Positions 36,749-43,582 of a DNA stretch of 64,000 bases are shown here, in pieces. Source of the stretch: Candidatus Poribacteria bacterium (GTDB lineage: Bacteria; Poribacteria; WGA-4E; PCPOR2b); NCBI GenBank assembly GCA_965208675.1, contig OZ242351.1, forward strand, positions 864,001 through 928,000, in the 5' to 3' direction. The first letter of the stretch is position 1, and each line of letters begins with the position of its first letter. Made by a program: the position numbers and the translations under genes. Under the pieces are notes generated by a model, which was not told the origin of the DNA, did not search any database, and was given only the letters and a program-made list of their open reading frames with translations.

Positions 36749-37810
36749 TCACTTGGGAGTTTTCCAAATCAGCACTGCTCCAATGATTGCATAAATTGTG
36801 TTTGCGCCCCAACACGCTACGATTGGTGAAAGTTTGCCGTTTTCGCCAAGTCCCTCAAGTGTTGCAAACGAAACACCCCAATACAAAAAACTGAGAAAAA
36901 AGGCAATCACCAAACCGGCGAAAAACCCGGCTTTGCCAAATCGTATAGAAATTGGCGCACCGATTAATACAACGACGAACGCTGCAAACGGATAAGCCAA
37001 TTTGTGCTGTATCTTCACCTGCTCACGCCGAATAGTTTGGCCCGCGCGCCTTTTATACCGAACCTGCTCCTGCAGCTCCGCAAACGTCATCGCGCGTATA
37101 TCTTTGTCGTTCCCAGCGAACCGCTCCGGATTTTCAGAGCGATTAATCTGCTTGGTATCGAACGGCTCAAAAGAAATTTCAACGTCTTTCTCAATGCGGC
37201 GTATAAAACCGTCGACGAGATGCCATTGGGTAGGTGACCATGTTACCGAATGGGCAAAAATCTCCTGCTCAAGATTTCCGATCGAATCAAACTCATAAAT
37301 TGTCATTTTATTGATGTTTTGGTGTTGGAGATCCAAATTTTGGATGTAGAACAGCCGATTATGTTGCCCTTTAAACACCACATTTCGACTACGGCGCAAC
37401 GGAATCTTCTTTTTCAATTGATTCGCCCGGTGGTAAGCAGGTGCAGCAATCTGATCGTAGAACAGTGAAAAAAGGATGCAAATTAGGAGAGTAGAAGCGA
37501 GAATTGGGGCGATAATACGATACACGCTGATGGTCGCCATCTTCATTGCTGTGAGTTCATTGTTTCTTGCCATGCGGCCTAAAACGAAGAAAGTCGCGAG
37601 AAAACTGGCGAGCGGGACAACCTCCATGATTCTGCGCGGCGCCTGAAATAAAACAATCTGGATTGCCGTGGTGTAAGGTACATCTTCATCAAATCGTTTG
37701 ATGTCTTTATCGAGCAAGCGAACAACAACTACAAGCGTAATAAAAAATGTAAGCGCCAACACAAAAGTTCTTATATATTCAGCAAAAATGTACCGGTCTA
37801 GGATTCTCAA
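36749..37810 (-). CDS. lptG: LPS export permease LptG
   Basis: ILDRYI start, NELTAMK, KLAYPFA; follows lptF. Confidence 0.85.
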   Translation of the reverse strand: MRILDRYIFAEYIRTFVLALTFFITLVVVVRLLDKDIKRFDEDVPYTTAIQIVLFQAPRRIMEVVPLASFLATFFVLGRMARNNELTAMKMATISVYRIIAPILASTLLICILFSLFYDQIAAPAYHRANQLKKKIPLRRSRNVVFKGQHNRLFYIQNLDLQHQNINKMTIYEFDSIGNLEQEIFAHSVTWSPTQWHLVDGFIRRIEKDVEISFEPFDTKQINRSENPERFAGNDKDIRAMTFAELQEQVRYKRRAGQTIRREQVKIQHKLAYPFAAFVVVLIGAPISIRFGKAGFFAGLVIAFFLSFLYWGVSFATLEGLGENGKLSPIVACWGANTIYAIIGAVLIWKTPK

Positions 37811-37812
37811 TC

Positions 37813-39027
37813 TTATTCCCCGAGATGTTGTATTTCCGGATTTTTCAAAACTACTGGCGGATTTTCACCCCGCGTTCGCCACGCTGTCAATCTATCTTCA
37901 AAAATCGTCATTACGATGATTCCCATTCCAATCGCTCCTATAGTAATATTCGGCAACCAAATCGAAAATGCGGGCGGCAGCGTGCCATTTTCTCCAGCCT
38001 CCTGCCCGAACTGCAAAATCAGATAGTAAAACAGAATCAGTGTCATCCCTATTCCTGCCCCGACCATTTTGCCGCTTCGTTTCACTATCAACCCTAGCGG
38101 CACGCCAATTAAACCGAAAACAAAACACGCAAACGGGATTGAAAACCTCTTCTGATACTCTACCCGTGCCTTCCTTGACTTATCTATTATTAAGTCTGAA
38201 CTGTTCACCTGCGAAAGACGGCTTTCAAGTTTATTCACGTGGGCTCTGAGCTTTTCCATCGACATGGTCCGAGGACTTTCAAATTCTTGTTTCGTACGTT
38301 CCACTGTCTCGCTCAAATCGAGTGCGATTCGATGTTCAGCAAACGATGTCAGCCGGAAACCGTTAGGTGAAGAGGGAATAGGTTCATAGGTTAAGCCGTC
38401 GTAGAGTTTTAACCAAGCCTGACCGTTTTCAATCTCAATGTCCCCTCCAGTTGCATGGATAAAACGAGGCTGCCCCGACCAAATTGAATCCCACACCTTA
38501 ACGTCTTGCAGCCTATCCGTGTTTGAGGCTGTCGATTCGTACATCCAGAGTTTTCCCTCCCGTTCCAACTCCTTCATGATCACACCCTCTTCTAACACAA
38601 AAGCTGGATTCTGCCTGTTTATATCGCGCTTTAACGAAGCATAAGCCACATTGCCGCGGGGCAAAGCGTAGTCCATGAAGAAAAAATCAAAAACGCCAAT
38701 TAAGCTTGCAACGACCAACAGCGGCAAAAGGATTTGATGAAATCCAATTCCGTGCGATTTCATAGCGGCAATCTCATTGTCTGTCGAGAGTCTTCCCAAG
38801 GCAAGCAGGATTCCAACGAGGGTTGCCATTGGGATAGTCAAGACTAGTATCACCGGCAAGACATAAATCAGCAGTTCAATCAGATAACCGAGGTTGATTC
38901 CCTTTTCTACAAAGCGTTTTGTGAGTCGGAAAATTTCGTCAAGTAACAGGATGGAAGTAAAACAGAGTAGCGCAAGAAAGAAGGGTGGGAAGAACTCTTT
39001 TAGTGCGTATCTAGTTAAAATTTTCAA
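37813..39027 (-). CDS. lptF: LPS export permease LptF
   Basis: ILTRYALKE, LGRLSTDNEIAAMK, KRFSIPFAC, WLPN. Confidence 0.85.
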   Translation of the reverse strand: MKILTRYALKEFFPPFFLALLCFTSILLLDEIFRLTKRFVEKGINLGYLIELLIYVLPVILVLTIPMATLVGILLALGRLSTDNEIAAMKSHGIGFHQILLPLLVVASLIGVFDFFFMDYALPRGNVAYASLKRDINRQNPAFVLEEGVIMKELEREGKLWMYESTASNTDRLQDVKVWDSIWSGQPRFIHATGGDIEIENGQAWLKLYDGLTYEPIPSSPNGFRLTSFAEHRIALDLSETVERTKQEFESPRTMSMEKLRAHVNKLESRLSQVNSSDLIIDKSRKARVEYQKRFSIPFACFVFGLIGVPLGLIVKRSGKMVGAGIGMTLILFYYLILQFGQEAGENGTLPPAFSIWLPNITIGAIGMGIIVMTIFEDRLTAWRTRGENPPVVLKNPEIQHLGE

Positions 39028-39736
39028 GCCTATAAAACTCCGATTGCCTGCACAATGTACATCATATTGTTGGTTTATTTTACACCACGCAAGTCAATAT
39101 ATGCAAGATATTAGTTGCTACGCAAAAGTTGAATCTTCAGTTACACAACACCTTTGACCGTCAACGAGAAATTTCCCGCGTCCCTTTCTACTGAGTCATC
39201 TTGTTCCAGACGTAAAATCATGTGCGCACATTTGCCAATTGCATTTTAAGTCTAACGCCTTTTCACTGCACAACGCACGTTTCGCATCCATCCATGCCGG
39301 CGAGAAAAACCATTTGGCCCAACAACGGCTCTAGCACATAATTTTCAAACAGGAATTAAAGCAATGCACTATCTGCGAGAAAATTCTCTCTTATAGGCGG
39401 AATTTTCGCTAAAAGTGCATCCGAATCTGTGTTGCAGTAAACGACTGTAAAATTGTCTTCTCAACAGCATTTATACAAATAATATACGTCGCGCAATCAT
39501 CCATGACAGCGAGAAATACAATTACCTCGTCGCCCATGCATGAATCCCACTTTAACACGGACGCGGCGGTGACAAAAATTTACCAATATGCGTTTTTGGG
39601 GTTAATTTCGTTGTGCAATTGCTAACATCTACAATGGACAAACAAAACAGCTAGGATATTACCCAATGCGAGAGGCTTTGGACCTTACGGCAACGGGAAA
39701 GGTTTGATGCAACTCACGTATCATCAGGAGAATGAA

Positions 39737-40945
39737 ATGAGAATGGATTTAAATAATGTGCTTCAACGTTCAACGAGCGTACGGGTAGAAGCCCACTGGG
39801 AACCGATTGCGGATTCTTCGTTTAATCTGCATAACGAATATCGTGAGCACGCTGGGTTATTCGATCTGTCTCCAATCTACCCCACCAAAAAATATGAGCC
39901 GGACGCGTTTAAAGCGTTTCTTCCCTCCCGGCCGATGTTGGTAGGTGATGTATGGGAGCTCGACTCCGAGGGAGTTGTTCAGTTCCTTCGCCAATTCCAC
40001 TCTGGAGCGACGATGAAACTACATCATGGCACGGAAGGCGCCTACGCGTGCCTTCGCGCGCTTTCGTCAAAATATGCGGAAATTACATTTCGCATTCATG
40101 CAGATTTTGCCTTATCGAGTATCGCGTATGAAAATTGGCGGCGGGACAATTCGTTGAAGGAGGATGAGGGCAAAGCCCGCTTTATCCCATCACAATTTGC
40201 AGGGCGATTGGTAGTCAACCTTAAAGAGAGGACGGTTAGAGCGTTTTCACTTGCGTTGCCGCCCCGCAATAGCAACGTAGACATCAACGCCTACGGCGGC
40301 GCTGATATGGTTTTAGTACCGCGTATGGAACTCGTCGGTGCTAACGCCAATGACCAGTGTGAAATTGCGTGGGACACTAACATCACTGAGGATGAAGCGC
40401 GCAGGGCGTTGGAGTTGAAGTTCTACAAGTTCGCTGAAATTGAATGGCGGCCGGTTGAAGAAGCGGTTAAACTTGCTGTGGAAACGGGTCGTCCGATCCA
40501 TGCAATCCTTGTCTGGGGGGCGTTGGACGACGAATCATGCTGAGCGAACGGCAAACAATTGAGGGCGGGTCCGCTCTCCAATTCAGAAGTGATAAAGACG
40601 CTCAACCAGAAGTTCGTCAATACTTGGGTGTTCCTACGAGAGTTGCCGGAACTAATAGGCGGCGCGAGAGGGGAAGGTGCGAGCCGCGTCGTGGCAAAAC
40701 TACAACAGCATTACTCCGATTCGGTAGATATATTGATGCTGTCTTCAGAAGCAGAGGTGCTGGCACATCAGCCGGAGATGGCGCTTCCTTACAGGGGCAG
40801 GACAGAAGCTTACTTAAAGTTCCTCAATCGAACTTTAGAATCCTTTGAAGGAAGATATTTCTCAAAATTAGATGCAAAACCCATCAGATTGGGGAGGAAG
40901 TTTAAGAGCCTGTTTGAAAAAGAAAAAAGATGTCTGAACGGTTGA
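39737..40945 (+). CDS. Selenoprotein N (SELENON)-like selenoprotein; Sec UGA at 40541-40543; C-terminus cut off by an IS
   Basis: Track ORFs 39704-40543 and 40559-40945 are in one frame separated by a single TGA. The read-through HAILVWGALDDESC-U-ANGKQLRAGPLSN...LNQKFVNTW matches the SELENON LLWGALDDQSCUGSGRTLR...LNESFISTW motif as I recall it. SD AGGAG lies before ATG 39737. Confidence 0.88.
40557..40583 (+). promoter_or_regulatory. Bacterial SECIS element
   Basis: Hairpin AATTG-AGGGCG-[GGTC]-CGCTCT-C-CAATT; the GGUC apical loop starts 24 nt after the UGA and resembles the E. coli fdhF SECIS loop. Confidence 0.75.
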
Positions 40946-41792
40946 TGTTTACGTTTACTCACTGGAGCAGTTGATTCCGAACCAATGAAGGGAGTAAACA
41001 TGAACCGAAAACGTTATCCTAGTGATTTGACCGATGTACAATGGCAGAAACTGTCAGCGTTTCTGCCAACCCCTCAACCATTAGGTAGACCTCTAAAATG
41101 GGAGATGTACTTAATTGTCCATGCCATCTTTTATGTCGTCAAGTCCGGTTGCCAGTGGCGAATGCTACCATACGATATGCCACCGTGGCAAACCGTCTAT
41201 TACCATTTTAGGAAGTGGGAAGCCGACAATACATGGCTCTTGATTCATCAGGCACTTCACGAACAATCACGCTGTGATGGTGGCAAAGAACCATCACCGA
41301 CAGCAGCTATCATTGACAGCCAATCCATTAAGACAACTGAACTGGCGACGACTCGCGGTTTTGATGGTCACAAGAAGGTCAAAGGACGCAAACGACATCT
41401 AGTAACGGATACGACGGGTATTCCATTGATGGTCAAAGTCACTGACGCGAATGTCAGTGATAATCAGATTGCTATCGAGTTACTAACAGAAGTGTTTAGC
41501 TGGTACATAACCATTCAGTTGGTGTGTGCCGATGCCGCCTATCGTGGAGAATTGGAAGACTGGTTATATTTTGCTCATCAATGTCAACTGGAGATTGCAT
41601 CTACGCTAGGACGGGAGAAGTTTGAAGTTATCCCGTTACGATGGATTGTTGAGCGCACATTTTCTTGGCTTGGTTGGTTTCGTCGATTGACTTTGGATTA
41701 TGAACGCTATCCTAGGACTGCTGAGACTATGGTGTACATCGCTTCCATTTACTTAATGCAAAATCGAATCAAATGACTTTTCAAACAGGCTC
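40906..41792 (+). mobile_element. IS5-family insertion sequence (IS1031-like), 887 bp
   Basis: Perfect 15-bp terminal inverted repeats GAGCCTGTTTGAAAA (40906-40920) / TTTTCAAACAGGCTC (41778-41792); TAA target duplication at 40903-40905 and 41793-41795. Confidence 0.95.
41000..41776 (+). CDS. IS5-family DDE transposase
   Basis: YPSDLTD-QW, GCQWRMLP, IIDSQSIKT, KGRKRH, ADAAY, RWIVERTF; intact; SD before ATG 41000. Confidence 0.95.
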   Translation: MNRKRYPSDLTDVQWQKLSAFLPTPQPLGRPLKWEMYLIVHAIFYVVKSGCQWRMLPYDMPPWQTVYYHFRKWEADNTWLLIHQALHEQSRCDGGKEPSPTAAIIDSQSIKTTELATTRGFDGHKKVKGRKRHLVTDTTGIPLMVKVTDANVSDNQIAIELLTEVFSWYITIQLVCADAAYRGELEDWLYFAHQCQLEIASTLGREKFEVIPLRWIVERTFSWLGWFRRLTLDYERYPRTAETMVYIASIYLMQNRIK

Positions 41793-42147
41793 TAAGGAGG
41801 TACTGTATGTTTTTCGCTCCTCGGGCACGCCAGATTACACGATTGTCGACATTGACACAACCTCTTTTGAACACGACGGGATACTCTACATAGAGATACA
41901 GGTCGGTGGGGGCGAGGCAGCAGGGACGTTTGAATTGTTCGATGGTGACACGGAACTTGTTACAGATGAATCTCCTGATGAAGCCCTGACTGGAGCGTGG
42001 AATATCCCGCCCGGAGGAACTGGACACATTATGTACGGCTTCAAACGGGGGCAGCGTTTTAAGTTGACTGCTGCCGGGGGTATATCAACCAAGGCGGGGT
42101 GCATCAACGCATTTATTGCGCATATTTATGTGGTCAACGAGGCGTGA
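41773..42147 (+). CDS. Detached C-terminal beta-rich domain of the SelN-like gene
   Basis: Removing the IS and one TAA joins ...GRKFK to EVLYVFRSS... in frame. An IS-derived ATG at 41773 overlaps the transposase stop (ATGA). Confidence 0.75.
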   Translation: MTFQTGSKEVLYVFRSSGTPDYTIVDIDTTSFEHDGILYIEIQVGGGEAAGTFELFDGDTELVTDESPDEALTGAWNIPPGGTGHIMYGFKRGQRFKLTAAGGISTKAGCINAFIAHIYVVNEA

Positions 42148-42313: not shown

Positions 42314-43582
42314 TTAATTCAACGACTGCAATACATCAAAGTAAGTCGGGAAGGTTTTGTTGACGCAACTAGGATTTTTTATTCGAATACCCGGCACTTT
42401 CAACCCAATCAGAGAGAAACTCATGGCGATTCGGTGGTCGTTATACGTGTCAATTGCCGCAGGCGTAATCCTCGACGGAGAAATTTCGACACCGTCCTTA
42501 CCCTCGACAACTTTCACACCCAGTTTTCGTAGTTCTGTGACCGTGGCGTGAATGCGGTCTGATTCTTGCCAGCGAGTATGCCCAATATTGCGAATGCCCA
42601 CTTTGCTGGCGGCGAAAGGAGCGATTGCAGCCAACGTGGGCCAAGTGTCCGAAATTGCGTTCATGTCTATATCTATCCCCTTAAGCTGCTTAGCTCCAAT
42701 TACTTCACACCCACCACGTTTCCAATTGACCTGGCACCCCATTTTTTCCAGCACATCTACGAAATGCACATCTCCCTGAACAGAGTCCGAATTGAGGTTA
42801 TCTACTTGGACGCGGCCGCCTGTGAGCGCAGCGGCTGCAAAGAAGTAGGATGCGCTTGAGGCATCTGGCTCAATTAAAAATTCGCAGGCTTGATACTTCT
42901 GCCTACCTTCGATGAGGTAGGACCGATAGTTGTCGTGGGTCACAGTCACACCAAACGCCTTCATTACGGACAGCGTGATGTCAATATACGGCGTTTTAAT
43001 TTTGTCAGTGATTTCGACCTCTATACCTTTTTTTGTATATGGTGCAACGAGCATTAGCGATGTCAAGAACTGGCTACTTTTATTTGTATTCAGTCGGGAT
43101 TTTCCACCCTCAAATCCATTTGCATTGACAATGGCAGGAAGAAATCCGTTGTCGTATACTGAGCGCACATCAACGCCGAGTTGCCGCAGCGCATCCAGCA
43201 GATTAGCGATCGGACGGGTGCGGCGCATGGGTTCGTCGCCATCAATGACGAAATTGCCTTTCCCGAGCGCAACATAACTCACAAGTGACCGCGATGTCGT
43301 TCCGGAATTGCCGACGTAGAGTTCAGCGTGATTGACAGGGATTTTACCGCCGTTGCCAGCAACCCAAAATGTACACCGATCTTCGTTCGCCTCGATCTCT
43401 ACCCCCAGTTCTCGCAGGGCGATGCACATGTAACGGGTGTCATCGCTGAAAAGCGCCCCTGTCAGCTGAGAACGGCCTTCAGCGAGCGCAGCAACCAACA
43501 GCGCCCGGTTTGTGAAACTCTTGGAACCGGGAATTGCGACTGCGGCATCAATTGCGCTCTTAACGGGTTGAATCTCGATCAT
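42314..43582 (-). CDS. aroA: EPSP synthase
   Basis: PGSKSFTNRAL, GNSGT, SSQFLTSL, QESDRI, DHRIAM, KTFP. Confidence 0.95.
   Translation of the reverse strand: MIEIQPVKSAIDAAVAIPGSKSFTNRALLVAALAEGRSQLTGALFSDDTRYMCIALRELGVEIEANEDRCTFWVAGNGGKIPVNHAELYVGNSGTTSRSLVSYVALGKGNFVIDGDEPMRRTRPIANLLDALRQLGVDVRSVYDNGFLPAIVNANGFEGGKSRLNTNKSSQFLTSLMLVAPYTKKGIEVEITDKIKTPYIDITLSVMKAFGVTVTHDNYRSYLIEGRQKYQACEFLIEPDASSASYFFAAAALTGGRVQVDNLNSDSVQGDVHFVDVLEKMGCQVNWKRGGCEVIGAKQLKGIDIDMNAISDTWPTLAAIAPFAASKVGIRNIGHTRWQESDRIHATVTELRKLGVKVVEGKDGVEISPSRITPAAIDTYNDHRIAMSFSLIGLKVPGIRIKNPSCVNKTFPTYFDVLQSLN

What the first reader, a model, noticed from the sequence alone, without database searches (positions are those of the whole stretch)
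39737..40905. Bacterial homologue of animal selenoprotein N with an in-frame UGA (Sec)
Seen: two ORFs share a frame and are separated only by TGA 40541-40543, giving WGALDDESC-U-ANGKQLR with Sec as codon 269 from ATG 39737. Known, from recall of SELENON: collinear blocks match, including GAYACLRA..FRIHADF ~ GAVACLTA..FRIHAEF, PSQFAG ~ PAQFTG, NVD, P-MEL, EARRALE..Y-F ~ EAARRLE..YPF, WGALDDESCU ~ WGALDDQSCU, LNQKFVNTW ~ LNESFISTW and YLKFL ~ YMQFL. SELENON is generally regarded as a eukaryotic ER redox protein. Inference: this is a soluble bacterial version with no evident TM anchor or EF-hand, which standard annotation would miss as two hypothetical genes. It bears on the origin of SelN or on inter-domain transfer, especially if the organism is an animal symbiont. 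I cannot confirm that it is unreported.
Basis: partly seen in the sequence, partly recalled or inferred. Interest (0 to 1): 0.92.

Follow-up and report, generated by a model that had tools for sequence, protein, structure and literature searches.

The report
Bacterial selenoprotein N homologue, IS-interrupted
A sponge-symbiont bacterium (Poribacteria) carries a true relative of the animal muscle-disease protein selenoprotein N, with a UGA codon that almost certainly encodes selenocysteine, but this copy has been cut near its end by a jumping gene.

Summary
From ATG 39737 the frame is open except for TGA 40541-43 (codon 269, ...DDESC-U-ANGK...). The product is a real SELENON homologue: local phmmer against a chordate protein that the ESM Atlas names selenoprotein N gives E 2.8e-23 (scaled to 1.84e9 sequences), aligned on both sides of the TGA. 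Sec is well supported. The TGA is kept in 73 of 76 motif hits in 80 poribacterial loci, and Cys forms exist. Codons just after the TGA vary synonymously. A conserved hairpin sits 20-37 nt downstream. The genome has tRNA-Sec, selA, selB and selD.

It detaches a C-terminal beta-sandwich domain (41796-42147). An intact 512-aa paralogue and three more copies lie elsewhere, and a related sponge metagenome holds the IS-free allele.

The family is greatly expanded in Poribacteria: 121 of 151 genomes, up to 13 or more matches each. It lacks the TM anchor and EF-hand. It is absent from a 2026 inventory of 119 prokaryotic selenoprotein families, although one database cluster name already reads "Putative selenoprotein n 1". 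An exploratory tree does not place the animal clade next to Poribacteria.

The parts
39726..39730 (+). Shine-Dalgarno-like AGGAG, 6 nt before the start codon
   Evidence: Read directly from the sequence.
39737..40540 (+). Codons 1-268: the SelN-type N-terminal beta-rich domain and the first strand of the thioredoxin-like domain, ending in ...DDESC (Cys268)
   Evidence: Translation. The 120 listed database homologues are 264-292 aa; the 6 I read all end at this Cys. The fold comes from the AF2 model of orthologue L020, pLDDT 86.3.
40541..40543 (+). In-frame TGA, codon 269, read as selenocysteine; it forms the vicinal Cys-Sec redox pair (SCU)
   Evidence: 73 of 76 motif hits in 80 loci have TGA here. 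Cys forms P0180 and P0193 exist. The Sec machinery is present.
40561..40578 (+). SECIS-like hairpin: 7-bp stem and GGUC loop, starting 20 nt after the U of UGA
   Evidence: Folding. 94.7% of cells are paired in 68 distinct sequences, and 7 cells have changes on both sides. Synonymous sites inside the hairpin are frozen (GGT 65 of 65 Gly codons, CCG 58 of 59 Pro, CTC 62 of 65 Leu), while flanking codons vary freely.
40544..40905 (+). Codons 270-389: the rest of the thioredoxin-like domain and the linker, up to the IS insertion point
   Evidence: (database second-half proteins), and the domain model with pLDDT 89.7 that hits DsbH, thioredoxin, AGR and UAS folds.
40903..40905 (.). Left copy of the TAA target-site duplication
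   Evidence: Sequence. BLAST ends of the IS copies. A contig in run X6 joins 40902 to 41793.
40906..41792 (+). 887-bp IS5-family insertion sequence with 15-nt terminal inverted repeats. Its first 40 nt add 13 foreign codons and the stop TGA 40943-45 to the truncated gene
   Evidence: Inverted repeats read. Eight full-length copies at 99.55-100% identity in the genome. Depth is 8-10 times that of the flanks in X1 and X3.
40985..41776 (+). IS transposase ORF, 263 aa
   Evidence: Pfam DDE_Tnp_1 4.9e-25 and DUF4096 7.2e-25, both matched over nearly their whole length.
41793..41795 (.). Right copy of the TAA target-site duplication
41796..42147 (+). Displaced 3' remainder of the gene: the C-terminal beta-sandwich domain (about 116 codons) and the original stop TGA 42145-47
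   Evidence: It is in frame with 39737-40905 once the IS is removed. It is contiguous in P0124 (91% identical) and in paralogue P0122. Strands 387-504 in the L020 model.

Best explanation
This is a poribacterial member of the selenoprotein N (SELENON) family.

SHOWN:
- The gene encodes a three-domain protein of about 506 aa: a SelN-type N-terminal beta-rich domain, a thioredoxin-like domain, and a bacterial-only C-terminal beta-sandwich.
- Codon 269 is a conserved UGA next to Cys268, just before the first helix of the thioredoxin-like fold.
- The genome has a full Sec-insertion system.
- A conserved hairpin follows the UGA.
- An 887-bp IS5-family element has inserted at codon 389/390.

INFERRED:
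- SelB with Sec-tRNA(Sec) reads the UGA as selenocysteine, directed by the hairpin at 40561-40578.
- Cys268 and Sec269 form a selenenylsulfide redox couple, like GCUG in thioredoxin reductase and SCUG in animal SelN. The protein would then act as a cytoplasmic thiol-disulfide or peroxide-linked oxidoreductase or redox sensor.
- The IS insertion is recent. The copy can now yield only a 402-aa product that keeps the catalytic N-terminal and thioredoxin-like module but has lost the C-terminal domain.
- Intact paralogues elsewhere in the genome carry the full function.
For: Homology:
- Window protein against chordate P0326: E 2.8e-23. Against P0306: E 3.7e-19. Both with Z = 1.84e9, and both cross the Sec position.
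- P0326 is named selenoprotein N, Chordata, by the Atlas at 0.98.
- The Cys-form relative P0180 has its nearest Atlas cluster in 'Selenoprotein N' at 0.93, sharing 207 of 256 features.
- P0180 finds P0326 at E 1.3e-14 among 1.84e9 representatives.

Sec:
- TGA in 73 of 76 motif hits in 80 loci.
- 67 loci have TGA followed by an open frame.
- In the own genome, 5 of 6 matches contain one TGA. The sixth is a fragment that stops short of the site.
- Gly at codon +3 uses GGC 31, GGT 26 and GGA 10 times; Lys at +4 is kept in 68 of 68. In 11 of 68 sequences the first possible restart codon is Phe.
- Cys forms are SCCG in P0180 and ACCA in P0193.
- tRNA-Sec scores 77.5 bits with anticodon TCA. SelA and SelB lie next to it. 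SelD itself contains a TGA.
- The gene's own stop, the IS-truncated stop and the transposase stop are all TGA, so TGA is not reassigned genome-wide.

Hairpin.

Fold:
- Full-length orthologue model: pLDDT 86.3, pTM 0.73.
- Thioredoxin-like domain model: pLDDT 89.7. Its best PDB hits are Thioredox_DsbH, DsbH, thioredoxin, AGR3, ERp19 and the UAS domain, at TMq 0.49-0.58.
- A natural fusion of the post-Sec half to an AhpC/TSA-Redoxin domain exists (P0179).

IS. The IS-free allele is seen in run X6, and loose ends in X5 are consistent with it.
Against: - There is no direct evidence that selenium is incorporated, or that the gene is expressed.
- The single-sequence hairpin is not more stable than shuffles (z -0.39).
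- Covariation is modest: 2 of 7 pairs change on both sides.
- The peptide LRAGPLS that the stem encodes is also kept in the Cys form P0180. Part of the hairpin's conservation may therefore be protein constraint.
- No Pfam or NCBIfam model names the protein.
- Two relatives have TGG or TGT at the site (L049, L044).
- The window copy has SCUA rather than the animal SCUG.
- Catalytic activity and substrate are inferred only from the fold and the motif.
- Some relatives are fused to ECF sigma factors, which hints at sensing rather than catalysis.
Confidence: 0.85

Rival explanations
1. The TGA is an ordinary stop. The locus would then be two separate genes (N-domain protein and downstream protein) or a nonsense-mutated pseudogene.
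For: Every public gene call treats it this way. The 120 listed hits are 264-292 aa, as expected for calls that stop at the TGA, and the 6 I read all end in ...ESC. The downstream halves are called from a TTG/CTG Leu codon.
Against: The TGA sits at one homologous codon in 73 of 76 motif hits. The five codons between the TGA and the putative restart are conserved as amino acids with synonymous change, and the restart codon is Phe in 11 of 68 sequences. Cys-containing relatives and animal SelN are single polypeptides across the site. The thioredoxin-like fold is only complete if both halves are joined.
Confidence: 0.03
2. The IS insertion has killed this copy. It would be a decaying pseudogene, and only the paralogues matter.
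For: The IS separates the last 117 or so codons. An intact 80%-identical paralogue exists in the same genome. Related strains keep the uninterrupted allele.
Against: The insertion looks recent. The IS copies are 99.55-100% identical, and there is no other stop or frameshift in either piece. The truncated ORF still encodes the whole N-terminal plus thioredoxin-like module. It extends past the point where 16 natural short forms (372-391 aa) end.
Confidence: 0.4
3. The family is mainly a redox sensor or regulatory module, not a bulk oxidoreductase. Cys-Sec oxidation would switch a partner or a fused ECF sigma factor.
For: Relatives P0182 and P0277 carry N-terminal Sigma70_r2 and r4 (ECF) domains fused to the SelN-like region, and P0239 carries LRRs. 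Animal SelN is described as a calcium-sensing redox regulator of SERCA2 (passages in PMC12839072 and PMC10298544).
Against: The window copy and most poribacterial copies have no such fusion and no regulatory neighbour. One relative is fused to a peroxiredoxin/redoxin domain instead.
Confidence: 0.2
4. The poribacterial genes were acquired recently from the sponge host, or the sponge gene came from Poribacteria.
For: SelN was described as apparently animal-specific (passage in PMC2375036). A sponge has one SelN (table in PMC3473315). Poribacteria live in sponges.
Against: In a FastTree of 111 N-domain sequences, the 4 EF-hand-bearing, eukaryote-like rows form one clade (100). That clade lies in a 49-row half of the tree with no poribacterial row. 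All 20 poribacterial rows fall in the other half (99). The bacterial genes use a bacterial in-ORF hairpin and lack the TM segment and EF-hand. The family has 331 clusters at 50% identity.
Confidence: 0.07

Closest known systems
Animal selenoprotein N (SELENON/SEPN1)
   Same: The N-domain and thioredoxin-like domain are collinear with it, with E 2.8e-23. Sec sits at the homologous position next to a Cys. Paralogues read SCUG as in animals (motif from PMC12839072). The fold around the motif is thioredoxin-like.
   Different: It has no N-terminal TM anchor, no EF-hand and no ER context. The window copy reads SCUA. It has an extra C-terminal beta-sandwich domain. The recoding signal is a hairpin inside the ORF right after the UGA, not a 3'-UTR SECIS (that contrast is from general knowledge). 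The family is multi-copy.
Thioredoxin_7 / DsbH / AGR / UAS group of thioredoxin-fold proteins
   Same: These are the best structural matches of the Sec-bearing domain: 7tkv, 2ju5, 2lst, 3f9u, 3ira, 3ph9, 2dlx and 1sen, at TMq 0.49-0.58. The A4 profile also weakly hits 3ira at E 0.038.
   Different: Sequence identity is only 12-18%. No Pfam thioredoxin model matches. The redox motif is a vicinal C-U, not CxxC.
Thioredoxin reductase C-terminal GCUG redox centre
   Same: Both have an adjacent Cys-Sec pair expected to cycle through a selenenylsulfide. The comparison is made in PMC12839072 (passage).
   Different: In thioredoxin reductase the pair sits on a flexible C-terminal tail of a flavoenzyme. 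Here it sits at the N-terminus of helix 1 of a thioredoxin-like fold.
IS5-family insertion sequences (DDE_Tnp_1 + DUF4096 transposases)
   Same: The transposase domains, terminal inverted repeats, a 3-bp TAA duplication and multiple near-identical copies all fit.
   Different: I did not assign the subgroup within IS5 with any tool. My impression that it resembles the IS1031 or IS427 type is recall only.

Membership tests
Selenoprotein N (SELENON) family | Significant sequence similarity to animal SELENON on both sides of the Sec codon | tested here: met
   E 2.8e-23 against P0326 and 3.7e-19 against P0306 at Z = 1.84e9. The stretch query 208-323 to target 403-514 spans codon 269. tie P0326 to the name selenoprotein N.
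Selenoprotein N (SELENON) family | Sec in an S-C-U-G redox motif at the homologous position | tested here: met
   The alignment column is shared with the chordate sequence. The window copy reads SCUA. Paralogue L004 and others read SCUG. The motif definition comes from a passage in PMC12839072.
Selenoprotein N (SELENON) family | Thioredoxin-like fold carrying the motif | tested here: met
   The AF2 domain model (pLDDT 89.7) hits the DsbH, thioredoxin, AGR and UAS folds. This was tested on orthologue L020, not on the window protein itself.
Selenoprotein N (SELENON) family | Luminal EF-hand calcium sensor | tested here: not met
   A regex scan found no EF-hand pattern and Pfam found none. P0326 shows weak EF-hand hits.
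Selenoprotein N (SELENON) family | N-terminal membrane anchor / ER residence | tested here: not met
   The highest 19-residue Kyte-Doolittle mean is 0.82, and the N-terminus is hydrophilic. Some non-poribacterial relatives do have signal-like N-termini.
Selenoprotein N (SELENON) family | Redox (reductase) activity toward a partner such as SERCA2 | not testable with these tools
   Known only from the literature on the animal protein.
Bacterial selenoprotein gene | Conserved in-frame UGA, with Cys in some homologues | tested here: met
Bacterial selenoprotein gene | SECIS hairpin shortly downstream of the UGA | tested here: inconclusive
   A hairpin at +20 to +37 is present and 94.7% paired across 68 sequences. 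Synonymous sites inside it are frozen and 7 cells are compensatory. However, the single-sequence z-score is -0.39, and the stem overlaps a conserved peptide. The likeness of the GGUC loop to the E. coli fdhF SECIS is recalled, not tested.
Bacterial selenoprotein gene | selA, selB, selC (tRNA-Sec) and selD in the genome | tested here: met
   tRNA-Sec, anticodon TCA; SelA, 526.9 bits; SelB wing 3, 67.7 bits; SelD, 375.8 bits, with its own TGA. The genome is 96.4% complete in one contig.
IS5-family insertion sequence | DDE transposase, terminal inverted repeats, target-site duplication, multiple copies | tested here: met
   The empty site is seen in run X6.

The most novel reading that the evidence does not exclude
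Selenoprotein N is not an animal invention. It would be the ER-adapted offshoot of a large, old bacterial superfamily of Cys-Sec (SCU) thioredoxin-fold proteins.

The evidence that leaves this open:
- The superfamily has 331 clusters at 50% identity.
- It is expanded to 13 or more matches per genome in sponge-associated Poribacteria.
- Some members are fused to ECF sigma factors or to peroxiredoxin-type domains.
- It has gone unlisted in inventories of prokaryotic selenoproteins because gene callers split every member at the UGA.

If this is right, soluble bacterial members, including natural Cys forms, become tractable models. They could be used to find the unknown substrate chemistry and structure of the human disease protein.
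Probability: 0.4. Interest if true: 0.85.

Novelty: new variant of a known kind. Interest (0 to 1): 0.72.

Why it matters
Human SELENON mutations cause congenital myopathies. The sequence searches here found no solved structure of any family member in the 2026 PDB copy. The papers I read describe its chemistry only through the SCUG motif.

A soluble bacterial homologue changes what can be tested:
- It has the same N-domain, thioredoxin-like domain and Cys-Sec centre.
- It has natural Cys variants and hundreds of sequence relatives.
- Structure, redox potential and substrates therefore become directly testable.

For microbiology, this looks like one of the larger selenoprotein families in a sponge-symbiont phylum. 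It was found in 121 of the 151 genomes searched. Even so, it is absent from the 119-family inventory published in 2026, and automatic annotation splits it in two.

It also revises the published impression that SelN is specific to animals.

The IS insertion in this copy, with the empty site still present in a related population, is a small clean example of ongoing gene turnover inside an expanded family.

Tried and rejected
- Pfam and NCBIfam give no family for the window protein, its paralogues, the Cys form or orthologue L020. This is uninformative, because the chordate protein itself only shows weak EF-hand hits.
- PDB sequence searches found nothing useful: the single protein gave only a Fab at E 1.3. 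Profile A5 gave nothing meaningful. Profile A4 gave only 3ira at E 0.038.
- The Foldseek search with the whole 506-aa model returned only generic beta-sandwich matches (SEC14L and p24 GOLD domains, Ena fibres, capsids) at TMq 0.18 or less. The output gives no query ranges, so I could not assign them to a domain. I then modelled the thioredoxin-like domain alone.
- The first mixed alignment of halves, A3, misaligned the C-terminal halves (14-18% identity). I dropped it in favour of A4, built from read-through translations of loci.
- Rfam found no family in the window at gathering thresholds. Whether Rfam holds a suitable bacterial SECIS model is not known to me.
- Run search: no RNA holder was listed, so nothing can be said about expression.
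- In read laying, contigs of X1 and X3 break around 40520-40575. No single listed piece spans the TGA there, and no alternative letter was listed at 40541-43 in any of the 4 runs. I give this little weight.
- The nearest X1/X3 contig over the left IS junction has only 26 letters on the IS side, so I do not count it as bridging.
- Literature: nine full-text searches found no paper describing a bacterial selenoprotein N. I saw search listings only for most papers.
- I read passages in PMC13326102, PMC4807772, PMC12839072, PMC10298544, PMC3473315 and PMC2375036. A term search in PMC7474598 found no occurrence. I read section 7, parts 1-2 (all of Table 1), of PMC13188914.
- Supplements were closed, so supplementary selenoprotein lists (for example BSepDB, or S9 of PMC4807772) may hold the family without my seeing it.
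- I have an unverified memory that a poribacterial SelenoN has been used by structural biologists in the SelN field. No search or PDB look-up here supports it.
- The code 4/25 reading (TGA = Trp or Gly) was considered and rejected. The gene's own stop and neighbouring stops are TGA, and the Sec machinery is complete.
- P0188, which has W at the site, is probably a gene call made under another code. I did not test that.
Full report
OBSERVATION

Translating window 39737-40905 with TGA=U gives 389 residues with a single non-standard codon. That codon is U269 = TGA 40541-40543, in the context WGALDDESC-U-ANGKQLR. Under table 11 the two halves are listed as ORFs 39704..40543 and 40559..40945 in the same frame. 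An AGGAG lies 6 nt before ATG 39737.

The end coordinate needs a correction. The frame does not stop at 40905. It continues for 13 codons and ends at TGA 40943-45.

AN INSERTION SEQUENCE CUTS THE GENE

An ORF for a 263-aa transposase lies at 40985-41776. It matches Pfam DDE_Tnp_1 (4.9e-25) and DUF4096 (7.2e-25). It is flanked by 15-nt inverted repeats and a TAA direct repeat at 40903-05 and 41793-95. This defines an 887-bp element at 40906-41792.

BLAST of this stretch against the laid genome finds:
- 8 full-length copies, the window's own included, at 99.55-100% identity;
- one 767-nt partial copy at 91.7%;
- one 143-nt fragment.

Removing the element inside a script restores one frame of 506 codons plus the stop, with a single internal TGA. 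The restored junction is contiguous in a 91%-identical database protein (P0124) and in the intact paralogue.

The empty site exists in nature. A 435-nt contig of a sponge-metagenome run (X6, about 96% alike) joins 40902 directly to 41793. Loose ends in run X5 point the same way: one at 40906 continues with letters close to the sequence that follows the IS, and one at 41793 is preceded by the letters that come before it. In the likely source sample (X1, X3) the IS region has 8-10 times the depth of the flanks.

This copy can now make at most a 402-aa product with 13 foreign residues at its end. The last 116 or so codons (41796-42147) are detached.

IT IS A SELENOPROTEIN N HOMOLOGUE

No Pfam or NCBIfam model matches, so I looked for an animal sequence through the tools.
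- A search restricted to residues 255-389 found P0180. This is a 411-aa single-chain relative with Cys-Cys in place of Cys-Sec and a signal-like N-terminus.
- The ESM Atlas places P0180 nearest a cluster named "Selenoprotein N" (Eukaryota 98%, Chordata) at 0.93, sharing 207 of 256 features.
- An exhaustive phmmer of P0180 against 1.84 billion representatives gave 331 proteins at E <= 0.001 (187 at <= 1e-10, 41 at <= 1e-30). Among them is P0326, 588 aa, at E 1.3e-14.
- The Atlas holds P0326 letter for letter and names it selenoprotein N (Chordata) at 0.98.

A local phmmer with the database size set to 1.84e9 gives these results for the window protein:
- Against P0326: E 2.8e-23, 99 bits, aligning query 45-323 to target 195-514. 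The stretch query 208-323 to target 403-514 spans codon 269 at iE 4.3e-13.
- Against P0306, a second animal-like sequence: E 3.7e-19.

The multiple alignment is collinear from the N-domain to the C-terminus of the animal protein.

EVIDENCE THAT THE UGA IS SELENOCYSTEINE

1. Conservation. The 120 listed database homologues of the N-terminal part are 264-292 aa, and the six I read all end in ...ESC. In 80 loci from species genomes, almost all titled Candidatus or uncultured Poribacteria, a motif scan found 76 hits:
- 73 are followed by TGA;
- 1 is followed by TGT (L044), with the frame closing 13 codons later;
- 1 is followed by TGG (L049);
- 1 is an unrelated hit.

A frame-based scan found 67 loci with TGA followed by an open frame:
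- 50 of 501-548 aa, plus L085 (474 aa), a long-type copy whose match starts later;
- 16 short forms of 372-391 aa;
- 12 loci were not scored, because their match does not start at the assumed position, runs off the contig, or carries TGT or TGG;
- one further row (L042) was an artefact of the assumed start.

2. Translation continues through the TGA. Gly at codon +3 uses GGC 31, GGT 26 and GGA 10 times. Lys at +4 is kept in 68 of 68 sequences. The Leu codon that gene callers use as a restart is Phe in 11 of 68.

3. Cys homologues exist (P0180, P0193).

4. The Sec machinery is complete. tRNA-Sec scores 77.5 bits and has anticodon TCA. SelA (526.9 bits) and SelB lie next to it. SelD scores 375.8 bits and itself contains a TGA. 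The genome is one contig and 96.4% complete.

5. TGA is also used as a real stop, both by this gene (42145-47) and by the transposase. A genome-wide reassignment is therefore excluded.

6. A hairpin follows the UGA. It has a 7-bp stem and a GGUC loop, 20-37 nt after the UGA (40561-40578).
- Across 68 distinct sequences, 94.7% of cells pair.
- 7 cells change on both sides. They include G-C to C-G in 4 sequences, which changes Leu to Phe and Ser to Cys together.
- The second paralogue group forms a 6-bp hairpin in a register shifted by 2 nt while encoding a different peptide.
- Synonymous sites inside the stem-loop are frozen (GGT 65 of 65, CCG 58 of 59, CTC 62 of 65), whereas flanking codons vary freely.

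Three things count against the hairpin:
- The single-sequence energy is ordinary (z -0.39).
- Covariation is modest.
- The encoded LRAGPLS is also kept in the Cys form.

ARCHITECTURE AND LIKELY MECHANISM

An AlphaFold2 model of the intact orthologue L020 (506 aa, alignment A4) has pLDDT 86.3 and pTM 0.73. It shows:
- a beta-rich N-domain, residues 1 to about 215;
- a beta-alpha-beta-alpha-beta-beta-alpha domain, residues 218-370, in which Cys268-Sec269 sit right before helix 270-277;
- a low-confidence linker, residues 374-383;
- an eight-strand C-terminal sandwich, residues 387-504.

The middle domain was then modelled alone (pLDDT 89.7). Its best PDB matches are Thioredox_DsbH (7tkv), DsbH (2ju5), a thioredoxin (2lst), AGR3, ERp19 and the UAS domain of UBXD7, at TMq 0.49-0.58. 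The thioredoxin-like fold expected for SelN is therefore supported.

The window protein has no hydrophobic segment (highest 19-residue Kyte-Doolittle mean 0.82) and no EF-hand pattern.

I infer a cytoplasmic redox protein. Its adjacent Cys-Sec pair would cycle through a selenenylsulfide, as proposed for the SCUG of animal SelN and the GCUG of thioredoxin reductase (passage in PMC12839072). Domain fusions in relatives point both ways:
- one is fused to an AhpC/TSA-Redoxin domain (P0179), which suggests catalysis;
- two are fused to ECF sigma factors (P0182, P0277), which suggests sensing.

The substrate is unknown.

FAMILY SIZE AND EVOLUTION

The window's genome has at least four further copies. 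Each has a TGA at the same place:
- an intact 512-aa paralogue, 80% identical;
- a tandem pair of 41%-identical copies beside it;
- a 546-aa SCUG copy elsewhere.

A profile search of 151 genomes of the phylum found matches in 121. By family the counts were f3 98 of 100, f2 9 of 10 and f1 12 of 25. There were up to 13 scored matches per genome. By my reading, all but one of the 150 listed rows contain a TGA.

I built an exploratory FastTree of 111 sequences, using the N-domain only. It is midpoint-rooted and most rows have no taxon label. It shows:
- The window copy is next to its own-genome paralogue (support 87), within a 4-row set that also holds L020 and L021 (97).
- The 20 poribacterial rows fall in two lineages within one half of the tree (99).
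- The four EF-hand-bearing, eukaryote-like rows form one clade (100) on a long branch in the other half (99), among 45 unlabelled rows.

This gives no support for a recent exchange between sponges and Poribacteria. It leaves a bacterial origin of the family open.

WHAT IS KNOWN

The literature I could read contains these statements:
- A 2007 survey states that SelN appears specific to animals (passage in PMC2375036).
- A sponge selenoproteome table lists one SelN (PMC3473315).
- A term search of a 2026 SelN review found no occurrence of 'bacteri' or 'prokaryot'.
- A 2026 review offering "the most comprehensive inventory" of 119 prokaryotic selenoprotein families lists no SelN-like family. It names only SelD, GPX, deiodinase-like, SELENOW-like and MsrA as shared with eukaryotes (PMC13188914, section 7, Table 1, read in full).

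Nine full-text searches found no paper on a bacterial SelN.

Against full novelty:
- An Atlas cluster whose commonest phylum is Candidatus Poribacteria already bears the automatic name "Putative selenoprotein n 1 (Fragment)". It matches the Atlas model of chordate SelN at TM 0.81. Some database annotation has therefore made the link.
- Supplements were closed.
- I have an unverified memory of a poribacterial SelenoN being used in the SelN field. No PDB entry matches it.

VERDICT

It is best described as a bacterial variant of a known family. It is soluble, has no EF-hand, has an extra C-terminal domain and uses a bacterial-type recoding signal. The family is large and under-annotated, and this particular copy was recently truncated by an IS element.

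I put interest at 0.72. The result is surprising to most selenoprotein and muscle-disease specialists and is useful as a model system. It is probably not wholly unseen by database curators.

Noticed in passing
window 40906-41792; also G000:C1 near 10 kb, 784 kb, 1.12 Mb, 2.16 Mb, 2.45 Mb, 2.67 Mb and 2.98 Mb: An 887-bp IS5-family element is present in 8 near-identical copies (99.55-100%), which implies recent transposition in this genome. Its right end supplies an in-frame ATG (41773) to the detached C-terminal domain ORF 41773-42147.
   Followed up: partly
L003, L005/L006 and L002 (G000:C1 about 2,539,500-2,545,300): There is a tandem array of three SelN-like genes, each with the TGA. It is followed by a separate 207-aa ORF (L002:3478-4101) that resembles only the linker and C-terminal sandwich of the L004-type paralogue. 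This looks like a naturally split form.
   Followed up: partly
L017 (G000:C1:4649539-4650462): The selD gene of this genome itself contains an in-frame TGA, so SelD is probably a selenoprotein too.
   Followed up: no
L045, L054, L058 and L062 (about 20 and 37 nt after their TGA): A paired change in the hairpin (G-C to C-G) simultaneously changes Leu to Phe and Ser to Cys in the encoded peptide (FRAGPLC). RNA pairing appears to drive a double amino-acid change here.
   Followed up: partly
L049:3311 and L044:3305: Two poribacterial copies have TGG (Trp) or TGT (Cys, with the frame closing 13 codons later) at the Sec codon. They are possibly decaying copies or sequencing variants.
   Followed up: no
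Proteins P0182, P0277, P0239 and P0179: Relatives are fused to ECF sigma-factor domains (P0182, P0277), to leucine-rich repeats (P0239) or to an AhpC/TSA-Redoxin domain (P0179). P0277 groups with poribacterial sequences in the tree.
   Followed up: partly
window 36749-39027 (-) and 42314-43582 (-): The neighbours are not obviously related in function. Upstream are two multi-pass membrane proteins that look like LptF/LptG-type permeases. Downstream is an ORF that looks like EPSP synthase (aroA). Both names are my reading of the translations and were not tested. The SelN-like gene stands alone between them.
   Followed up: no
Protein P0188: This full-length relative (526 aa) was recorded with Trp at the Sec position. 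It is probably a gene call made under a TGA=Trp code rather than a real Trp.
   Followed up: no
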